Source of the DNA: the human T2T-CHM13v2.0 reference genome, Homo sapiens | Reading direction: 5' to 3' | DNA: 64,000 nt | Assembly (NCBI GenBank): GCA_009914755.4 | Contig: CP068257.2 | Span: 22,656,001-22,720,000, forward strand | In this document: one piece after another, positions 23,647 through 23,770 of the stretch | How the letters are laid out: every line of letters begins with the position of its first letter | How positions within the stretch are numbered: the first letter of the stretch is position 1 | The notes under the pieces: model-generated | Databases searched by the model: none | Told to the model about the DNA's origin: nothing | Seen by the model: only the letters and a program-made list of their open reading frames with translations | Program-made: the position numbers and the translations under genes

Positions 23647-23770
23647 GTTCCAAATGAGTCTTCAAATATGAACCTTTTCAATTATTTATTAAAAATCATC
23701 TTGCTTCCCATAATATATTGATTTTTAATAAATAATTGAAAAGGTTCATATTTGAAGACTTATTTGGAAC
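23647..23770. repeat. Near-perfect inverted repeat: two 52-bp arms (23647-23698 and 23719-23770) around a 20-bp spacer
   Basis: Arm 1 is gttccaaatgagtcttcaaatatgaaccttttcaattatttattaaaaatca. Arm 2 is tgatttttaataaataattgaaaaggttcatatttgaagacttatttggaac. The reverse complement of arm 2 equals arm 1 except for one position (aaatGagtc against aaatAagtc). The spacer is tcttgcttcccataatatat. Confidence 0.9.

What the first reader, a model, noticed from the sequence alone, without database searches (positions are those of the whole stretch)
23647..23770. Near-perfect 52-bp inverted repeat with 20-bp spacer (hairpin or cruciform-capable)
The two arms, 23647-23698 and 23719-23770, are reverse complements with a single mismatch. 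A 51 of 52 match cannot be ancient neutral sequence, so the structure is either young or maintained. Possible origins are a palindromic non-autonomous DNA-transposon (MITE-like) insertion, a snap-back or template-switch duplication, or a structured RNA locus; some miRNA families derive from such palindromic transposons. Long AT-rich palindromes are also known fragility and rearrangement hotspots and are often deleted in bacterial clones.
Basis: seen in the sequence. Interest (0 to 1): 0.55.

Follow-up and report, generated by a model that had tools for sequence, protein, structure and literature searches.

The report
Young inverted duplication in primate DNA
A 53-base stretch of AT-rich primate DNA sits next to an almost perfect backwards copy of itself, most likely made by a single DNA-copying slip of a kind already known to occur thousands of times in primate genomes, and nothing found here points to a function.

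Summary
Arms 23646-23698 and 23719-23771 are 53 nt each and 52/53 complementary. They are separated by a unique 20-nt spacer. Simulated sequences give at most 21 nt, and no other repeat of this kind occurs in the 64 kb. The window carries Alu elements and L1 fragments, so it is primate DNA.

Complementarity stops abruptly at all four arm ends. No target-site duplication exists for any boundary within 6 nt. No other copy of the arm or spacer lies in the window. No Rfam family reaches its threshold.

The best reading is a single templated inverted duplication: a replication template-switch mutation of the "3-2-1-4 / 1-4-3-2" type, or equivalent fold-back synthesis. It is probably young and neutral.

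A MITE insertion is unlikely but not excluded, because no Dfam or whole-genome copy-number search was available. A miRNA or hairpin-RNA gene is unsupported. The fragility claim is overstated for 53-nt arms with a 20-nt spacer.

The decisive test is whether outgroup primates carry one arm or two. I could not run it: every route to orthologous DNA failed.

This is a new member of a well-described kind, of low interest.

The parts
23646..23698 (.). Left arm of the inverted repeat (53 nt, 22.6% GC): TGTTCCAAATGAGTCTTCAAATATGAACCTTTTCAATTATTTATTAAAAATCA
   Evidence: [quoted passage not shown]
23656..23656 (.). The only non-complementary position: G in the left arm, opposite T at 23761 (a transition; not in a CpG)
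   Evidence: the RNA folds show G:U on the + strand and an unpaired C/A on the - strand
23699..23718 (.). 20-nt spacer / hairpin loop TCTTGCTTCCCATAATATAT. It is not self-complementary, is unique in the window, and ends in a TA-rich run.
   Evidence: no inward extension of pairing; single occurrence at up to 3 mismatches
23719..23771 (.). Right arm of the inverted repeat (53 nt): TGATTTTTAATAAATAATTGAAAAGGTTCATATTTGAAGACTTATTTGGAACA
23761..23761 (.). Partner of the mismatch (T in the right arm)
23772..23790 (.). TA-rich right flank (TATACATATATATTATTTT). With the right arm removed, it would continue the TA-rich end of the spacer (..CATAATATAT|TATACATATATAT..). This is a weak hint that the right arm is the inserted copy.
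   Evidence: sequence read directly; inference only
23636..23645 (.). Left flank TTTTTTGGGT. It does not pair with the right flank and shares no direct repeat with it, so there is no target-site duplication.
   Evidence: outer extension and TSD scan

Best explanation
This is a single-copy inverted duplication made in one step by a templated copying error. During replication or repair synthesis, the growing 3' end left its template, copied 53 nt of the adjacent sequence from the complementary or nascent strand in the opposite direction, and then returned. This is a template-switch mutation of the four-point type '3-2-1-4 / 1-4-3-2' of Loytynoja & Goldman; fold-back ('snap-back') priming gives the same product. 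The result is source arm, 20-nt spacer, then reverse-complement copy.

Since the event, one transition (G/A at 23656/23761) has accumulated. That puts the point estimate of age at about 10-20 My, with very wide limits.

Shown: the structure, its uniqueness in the window, its abrupt boundaries, and the absence of a target-site duplication. Inferred: the mechanism, the age, which arm is the copy (weakly, the right one), and neutrality.

The locus can form a 53-bp hairpin in single-stranded DNA or in RNA from either strand. Nothing indicates that this is used.
For: - The arms are adjacent (20 nt apart), in cis, and 52/53 complementary. This is the product expected of an event type that makes up 31% of high-confidence human-chimp template-switch events (PMC5453318).
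- The copied length of 53 nt lies within reported ranges of 28 to 83 nt (PMC10710096).
- Complementarity ends abruptly at both outer and both inner ends. The five positions beyond the outer ends and the three at the inner ends do not pair, and further out only scattered A:T pairs occur. That fits a single event rather than a decayed larger palindrome.
- No flanking direct repeat of 4 nt or more exists for any boundary within +/-6 nt.
- Neither the arm, the spacer nor the flanks have another copy in the 64 kb, even at low stringency.
- Such events are common. 53,666 putative template-switch mutations were found in genic regions on the primate-to-human lineage, and 31,007 of them created new stems (PMC10710096). 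The prior is therefore high.
- A 17-nt tandem duplication lies 44 nt downstream. The TA-rich context suggests a locally slippage-prone tract.
Against: - The defining evidence for a template-switch mutation is an outgroup or ancestral sequence with only one arm. I could not obtain it.
- No microhomology is visible at the switch points, although the published model does not require it.
- A single mismatch in 53 nt dates the event only loosely.
- I could not measure genome-wide copy number, so a low-copy repeat family is not excluded.
Confidence: 0.62

Rival explanations
1. It is a copy of a palindromic non-autonomous DNA transposon (a MITE, like MADE1). It was inserted as a complete 126-bp unit, and the two arms are its terminal inverted repeats.
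For: The overall shape of two long inverted arms around a short loop, about 126 bp in all, resembles palindromic MITEs such as MADE1, the source of mir-548 (PMC1784062, listed). Absence of a second copy in 64 kb says little, because even a family of thousands of copies would be expected less than once per window.
Against: - There is no target-site duplication of any length of 4 nt or more for boundaries within +/-6 nt. There is no TA or TTAA at the ends.
- The termini (TGTTCC...GGAACA) do not resemble hAT, Tc1/mariner or piggyBac ends as I recall them (from memory, not tested).
- DNA transposons are considered inactive in primates since about 37 Mya (PMC11195612 quoting Pace & Feschotte 2007). 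Two arms evolving independently for 40 My would show 1 mismatch or fewer with P = 0.076 at 1e-9 per site per year and P = 0.002 at 2e-9, though P = 0.37 at 0.5e-9.
- No Rfam transposon-derived miRNA family matches.
Confidence: 0.1
2. It is an older imperfect inverted repeat whose arms have been kept alike or re-homogenised. The means would be repeated template switching between the arms (Ripley-type correction) or arm-to-arm gene conversion, so the high identity would reflect maintenance rather than youth.
For: Template switching can convert near-perfect inverted repeats into perfect ones and can expand them (PMC5453318; abstract of PMC13100816). The identity alone cannot separate 'young' from 'maintained'.
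Against: Outside the 53-nt arms there are only scattered A:T pairs at the level expected in AT-rich DNA, either outward or into the spacer. An old, larger quasi-palindrome would be expected to leave more. Arms of 53 nt are well below the length at which mammalian homologous gene conversion is efficient (my own knowledge).
Confidence: 0.1
3. Whatever its origin, the hairpin is a functional RNA locus: a lineage-specific miRNA or endo-siRNA precursor, or an ADAR/dsRNA-sensor substrate within a transcript.
For: Both strands would fold into a very stable 53-bp hairpin with a 20-nt loop. Template-switch hairpins have given rise to at least 18 human miRNA genes (PMC10710096).
Against: - No Rfam family reaches its gathering score anywhere in the window.
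- The only E-value hits are plant long-hairpin models at 47 of 140 bits or less, matching both strands equally, which is structure-only resemblance.
- The stem is about 18 bp longer than the roughly 35 bp preferred for pri-miRNAs (PMC10710096).
- Only 0.9% of suitable template-switch hairpins in genic regions are annotated miRNAs.
- No coding exon or Pfam domain was found in the window's ORFs of 80 aa or more, so there is no sign of a host gene.
- No text match to arm 12-mers as a published miRNA or primer of relevance.
Confidence: 0.03
4. It is an assembly, cloning or amplification artefact (a chimeric inverted join), or simply two unrelated ordinary repeat copies that happen to lie head to head.
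For: I could not check the exact site against independent reads.
Against: - The one mismatch between arms is not expected of a chimeric read artefact, which would give identical arms.
- Neighbouring sequence is reproduced exactly in an independent run.
- For the 'two repeat copies' version, the similarity would extend as diverged sequence beyond 53 nt, and related copies would be expected among the window's repeats. Neither is seen.
Confidence: 0.05

Closest known systems
Template-switch mutations (four-point model; event type '1-4-3-2' / '3-2-1-4') described in human and primate genomes (Loytynoja & Goldman 2017, PMC5453318; Monttinen et al. 2023, PMC10710096)
   Same: An inverted copy of immediately adjacent sequence, perfect when created, with sharp ends, no target-site duplication, and unique sequence. 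The length is within the reported range, and the product is a hairpin-capable inverted repeat.
   Different: At 53 nt it is well above the minimum lengths those studies accepted (14-15 nt) and between the two examples they give (28 and up to 83 nt).
Palindromic MITEs of the human genome, e.g. MADE1 (Tc1/mariner-derived, source of the mir-548 family; PMC1784062)
   Same: Small size (about 80-130 bp) and an almost entirely palindromic structure that folds into a long hairpin.
   Different: No TA (or any other) target-site duplication, no other copies seen, arms far more alike than expected for a family extinct for about 37 My or more, and no match to mir-548 or any other Rfam family.
Palindromic AT-rich repeats (PATRRs) and other fragile long palindromes
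   Same: AT-rich (77% A+T) and cruciform- or hairpin-capable.
   Different: PATRRs are several hundred bp long with essentially no spacer (my own knowledge). Here the arms are 53 nt with a 20-nt spacer. Genome surveys treat spacers above about 8 nt as unlikely to extrude, and the longest perfect short-spacer inverted repeat in human has 140-bp arms (PMC13155455).
Templated inverted insertions from fold-back (snap-back) synthesis during polymerase-theta-mediated end joining
   Same: The product is the same: an inverted copy of flanking sequence at a repair junction.
   Different: As I recall, such insertions are usually much shorter, from a few nt to about 30 nt. The two mechanisms cannot be told apart from the sequence alone.

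Membership tests
Template-switch mutation (four-point model) | A fragment that is the exact reverse complement of nearby sequence in cis, at least 14-15 nt long | tested here: met
   53 nt, 52/53 complementary, 20 nt from its partner; length thresholds from PMC5453318 and PMC10710096
Template-switch mutation (four-point model) | A parent (outgroup or ancestral) sequence lacks the inverted fragment, and one switch-and-return event explains the difference better than substitutions plus indels | not testable with these tools
   No orthologous primate DNA could be reached: exact ORF look-ups, protein searches, and arm and flank patterns in three collections
Template-switch mutation (four-point model) | Abrupt ends of complementarity, with no transposon hallmarks | tested here: met
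   The first five positions beyond the outer ends and the first three at the inner ends do not pair, with only scattered A:T pairs further out; no TSD
MITE / non-autonomous class II transposon | Target-site duplication flanking the element (TA, TTAA, 8 bp, etc.) | tested here: not met
   Scan of all boundaries +/-6 nt for direct repeats of 4-12 nt found none. The flanks are GGGT| and |TATA, so there is no TA or TTAA on the left
MITE / non-autonomous class II transposon | Terminal inverted repeats | tested here: met
   Met trivially: the whole unit is an inverted repeat. The termini do not resemble known superfamily ends (from memory only)
MITE / non-autonomous class II transposon | Multiple dispersed copies forming a family (a Dfam/Repbase match) | tested here: inconclusive
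   There is no other copy in the 64 kb, but fewer than 1 copy per window is expected even for abundant families. The public collections searched do not even hold this locus's flanks, so their zero hits for the arm carry little weight. Dfam was not available
Known miRNA / structured RNA family (Rfam 15) | Covariance-model score at or above the family's gathering threshold | tested here: not met
   0 matches in the window at gathering thresholds. The best sub-threshold hit is MIR2606, 47.4 of 139.7 bits, on both strands
Canonical animal pri-miRNA | About 35-bp stem with an apical loop of 10 nt or more, plus small-RNA reads from the arms | tested here: inconclusive
   The 20-nt loop fits. The 53-bp stem is about 18 bp too long (criteria quoted in PMC10710096). 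Expression is not testable here
Fragile long palindrome (PATRR-type) | Arms of hundreds of bp, near-zero spacer, AT-rich | tested here: not met
   Arms 53 nt, spacer 20 nt; only the AT-richness is shared

The most novel reading that the evidence does not exclude
The hairpin is a recently born, lineage-specific template-switch product that is transcribed and processed into small RNAs. That would make it an unannotated de novo miRNA or endo-siRNA gene caught almost unmodified, one mutation after birth, showing the first step of RNA-gene origin.
Probability: 0.02. Interest if true: 0.4.

Novelty: new member of a known kind. Interest (0 to 1): 0.15.

Why it matters
It matters little on its own. 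It is one more example of how replication template switching instantly creates long perfect hairpins in primate genomes, the raw material from which a small fraction of new miRNA genes arise. Its practical relevance is twofold. A 53-nt inverted repeat breaks short-read de Bruijn assemblies and confuses aligners and variant callers. The site is also a plausible place for a small presence/absence or deletion polymorphism.

Tried and rejected
1. Orthologous or independent copies through gene look-ups. I ran exact look-ups of ten window ORFs near the palindrome. Only the 91-aa ORF at 25178-25453(-) was on record. It sits on a 905-bp Logan contig that stops 1.4 kb short of the palindrome.

2. Two protein-database searches with concatenated flanking ORFs found nothing. 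The second included the 91-aa ORF, which was also not found, and one search shows that this ORF is not in that collection. Both negatives are therefore uninformative.

3. Exact arm 22-mer in genome, metagenome and viral contigs: 0 hits. Unique flank patterns also gave 0 hits. These collections simply lack this locus, so they do not bear on copy number.

4. Looking for a host gene in order to fetch whole-gene orthologous loci. Pfam on all 72 stop-to-stop ORFs of 80 aa or more gave no family. I abandoned this route.

5. Rfam at gathering and at E-value thresholds gave only generic long-hairpin resemblance.

6. A full-text search for arm 12-mers in DNA and RNA spelling returned only unrelated primer coincidences. 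No supplementary files of PMC10710096 are held as text, so its locus lists could not be searched.

7. The bacterial promoter/terminator scan is irrelevant to a primate sequence and was ignored.

8. I considered and rejected an LTR (TG...CA ends, but 126 bp and no TSD), L1 twin priming (no L1 sequence in the arms), and hAT excision footprints (far too long).

Full report
**What is there**

The window is AT-rich (34.5% GC; profile). It carries eight matches to the Alu core and several L1 ORF2-like reading-frame fragments, so it is primate and probably human genomic DNA.

At the reported place, the repeat finder gives arms 23646-23698 and 23719-23771, 53 nt each and 98% complementary, with 20 nt between them. 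A base-by-base comparison shows one difference: G at 23656 opposite T at 23761. The spacer, TCTTGCTTCCCATAATATAT, has no internal complementarity and is unique in the window.

**Is it more than chance?**

Yes.
- Forty first-order Markov simulations of the window gave a longest inverted repeat (at most one mismatch) of 14-21 nt, against 53 nt here.
- The predicted DNA hairpin is -50.8 kcal/mol, against -10.7 +/- 2.3 for shuffles.
- The RNA hairpins are -73.4 kcal/mol (+ strand, G:U at the mismatch) and -68.0 kcal/mol (- strand, C/A mismatch).
- A scan of the whole window for closely spaced inverted repeats found nothing comparable. It returned only (TA)n/T-run low complexity and 25-28-nt matches of 70-84%.

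**Anatomy bearing on origin**

- Complementarity stops dead at all four arm ends. The five positions beyond the outer ends and the three at the inner ends do not pair. Further out only scattered A:T pairs occur, as expected in AT-rich DNA.
- A scan of every candidate boundary within +/-6 nt for flanking direct repeats of 4-12 nt found none. The flanks read ...TTTTTTGGGT| and |TATACATATATAT..., so there is no TA, TTAA or 8-bp target-site duplication.
- The arm has no other copy in the 64 kb at up to 3 mismatches in 29 nt. Low-stringency blastn of the element and 1.8 kb around it returns only AT-rich chance alignments.
- With the right arm removed, the TA-rich end of the spacer would run straight into the TA-rich right flank. 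This is a weak hint that the right arm is the added copy.
- A 17-nt tandem duplication lies 44 nt downstream, in keeping with a slippage-prone tract.

**RNA families**

No Rfam family reaches its gathering score anywhere in the window. With permissive thresholds the hairpin matches plant long-hairpin miRNA models: MIR2606 at 47 of 140 bits and MIR7996 at 41 of 119. The matches are on both strands about equally, which is resemblance in shape only.

The stem is about 18 bp longer than the roughly 35 bp favoured for pri-miRNAs (criteria quoted in PMC10710096).

**Age**

One mismatch in 53 paired positions gives a point estimate of roughly 10-20 My for mutation rates of 1 to 0.5 x 10^-9 per site per year. 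The limits are very wide. The probability of seeing one mismatch or fewer after 40 My, by rate:

| Rate (per site per year) | P(1 mismatch or fewer at 40 My) |
|---|---|
| 0.5 x 10^-9 | 0.37 |
| 1 x 10^-9 | 0.076 |
| 2 x 10^-9 | 0.002 |

So 'young or maintained' is reasonable but not forced.

**Mechanism**

The structure is the expected product of a template-switch mutation. In the four-point model, the nascent strand leaves its template, copies a nearby fragment in reverse-complement orientation, and returns (PMC5453318).

- The event type that creates an inverted repeat ('1-4-3-2' / '3-2-1-4') made up 31% of high-confidence human-chimp events.
- On the primate-to-human lineage, 53,666 putative events were found in genic regions alone. 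Of these, 31,007 made new stems and 6,054 were of miRNA size, of which only 0.9% are annotated miRNAs (PMC10710096).
- Copied fragments of 28 to 83 nt are described there, so 53 nt is within range.

I therefore rate a single templated inverted duplication as the best explanation, at about 0.6. Fold-back priming during repair gives the same product and cannot be told apart from the sequence.

**Rivals**

- **MITE.** It fails the target-site-duplication test. It also fits poorly with DNA transposons having been inactive in primates for about 37 My (PMC11195612 quoting Pace & Feschotte 2007). Genome-wide copy number could not be measured, so it keeps about 0.1.
- **An older inverted repeat re-homogenised by repeated switching.** This is possible at about 0.1, but no residual complementarity is seen around the arms.
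- **A functional hairpin-RNA gene.** Unsupported, at about 0.03.
- **An artefact, or two unrelated repeat copies head to head.** Unlikely, at about 0.05. The arms differ at one base, similarity does not extend beyond 53 nt, and neighbouring sequence is reproduced exactly by an independent run.

**The fragility claim**

Known fragile palindromes have arms of hundreds of bp and almost no spacer (my own knowledge). A recent survey restricted cruciform-capable repeats to spacers of 8 nt or less, and found perfect arms of up to 140 bp in human (PMC13155455). With 53-nt arms and a 20-nt spacer, this site is unremarkable. Hairpin formation on single-stranded DNA, and small deletions, remain plausible.

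**What could not be done**

The decisive comparison with other primates was out of reach.
- Exact ORF look-ups near the palindrome found no contigs.
- The protein searches were uninformative because their own control was absent from that collection.
- Neither the arm nor unique flanks occur in the genome, metagenome or viral contig collections.
- No coding exon that could serve as a handle for whole-gene orthologous loci was found.

**Verdict**

This is a real, non-random and probably young inverted duplication of a well-described kind, with no sign of function or of transposon origin. It is of low interest unless expression data or a presence/absence polymorphism show otherwise.

Noticed in passing
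window 23815-23850: A 17-nt tandem duplication (AATTTCTGTCATTTTGG / AATTTTTGCCATTTTGG, 2.1 copies, 89% match) lies 44 nt downstream of the palindrome. It is a second small duplication-type event in the same 200 bp.
   Followed up: partly
window 22811-23001: This stretch has diverged copies (62-72% identity) at 21259-21407, 39473-39663(-), 6674-6759(-) and 11911-12000(-). It is presumably an old interspersed repeat. The family was not identified.
   Followed up: no
window 27378-27440: A (TA)n microsatellite runs into a long T-run. It accounts for most of the other 'inverted repeats' reported in the window.
   Followed up: no
window 29776-31315(-), 37911-38351(-), 47276-47728(-), 58448-58939(-), 62893-63318(-): Open reading-frame fragments that read like the C-terminal part of L1 ORF2 (e.g. 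MFIAALFTIAKTWNQPKC...MEYYAAIKKDE). I recognised them by eye. Pfam gave no hit, as that part of ORF2 is not modelled.
   Followed up: partly
window 14206, 17231, 27697(-), 37052, 39214(-), 49274(-), 50696, 55328: Eight Alu core matches with 0-3 mismatches in 23 nt. The copy at 39214-39236 is exact. They mark the window as primate DNA.
   Followed up: partly
window 10700-12000: The most GC-rich part of the window (43% GC) has unusually long open frames on both strands (up to 152 aa) and no Pfam match. It may be an LTR or endogenous-retrovirus remnant rather than a gene.
   Followed up: partly
L001 1-905 = window 26084-25180: A Logan contig from run ERR9762631 is 100% identical to the window over 905 bp. 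It shows that some primate (host) DNA is reachable through the gene look-up tool, but only where an ORF happened to be called.
   Followed up: yes
window ~25400-25440 and ~4700-4940: (TG)n/(CA)n microsatellites, seen as CVCVCV and THTHTH runs in the translations.
   Followed up: no
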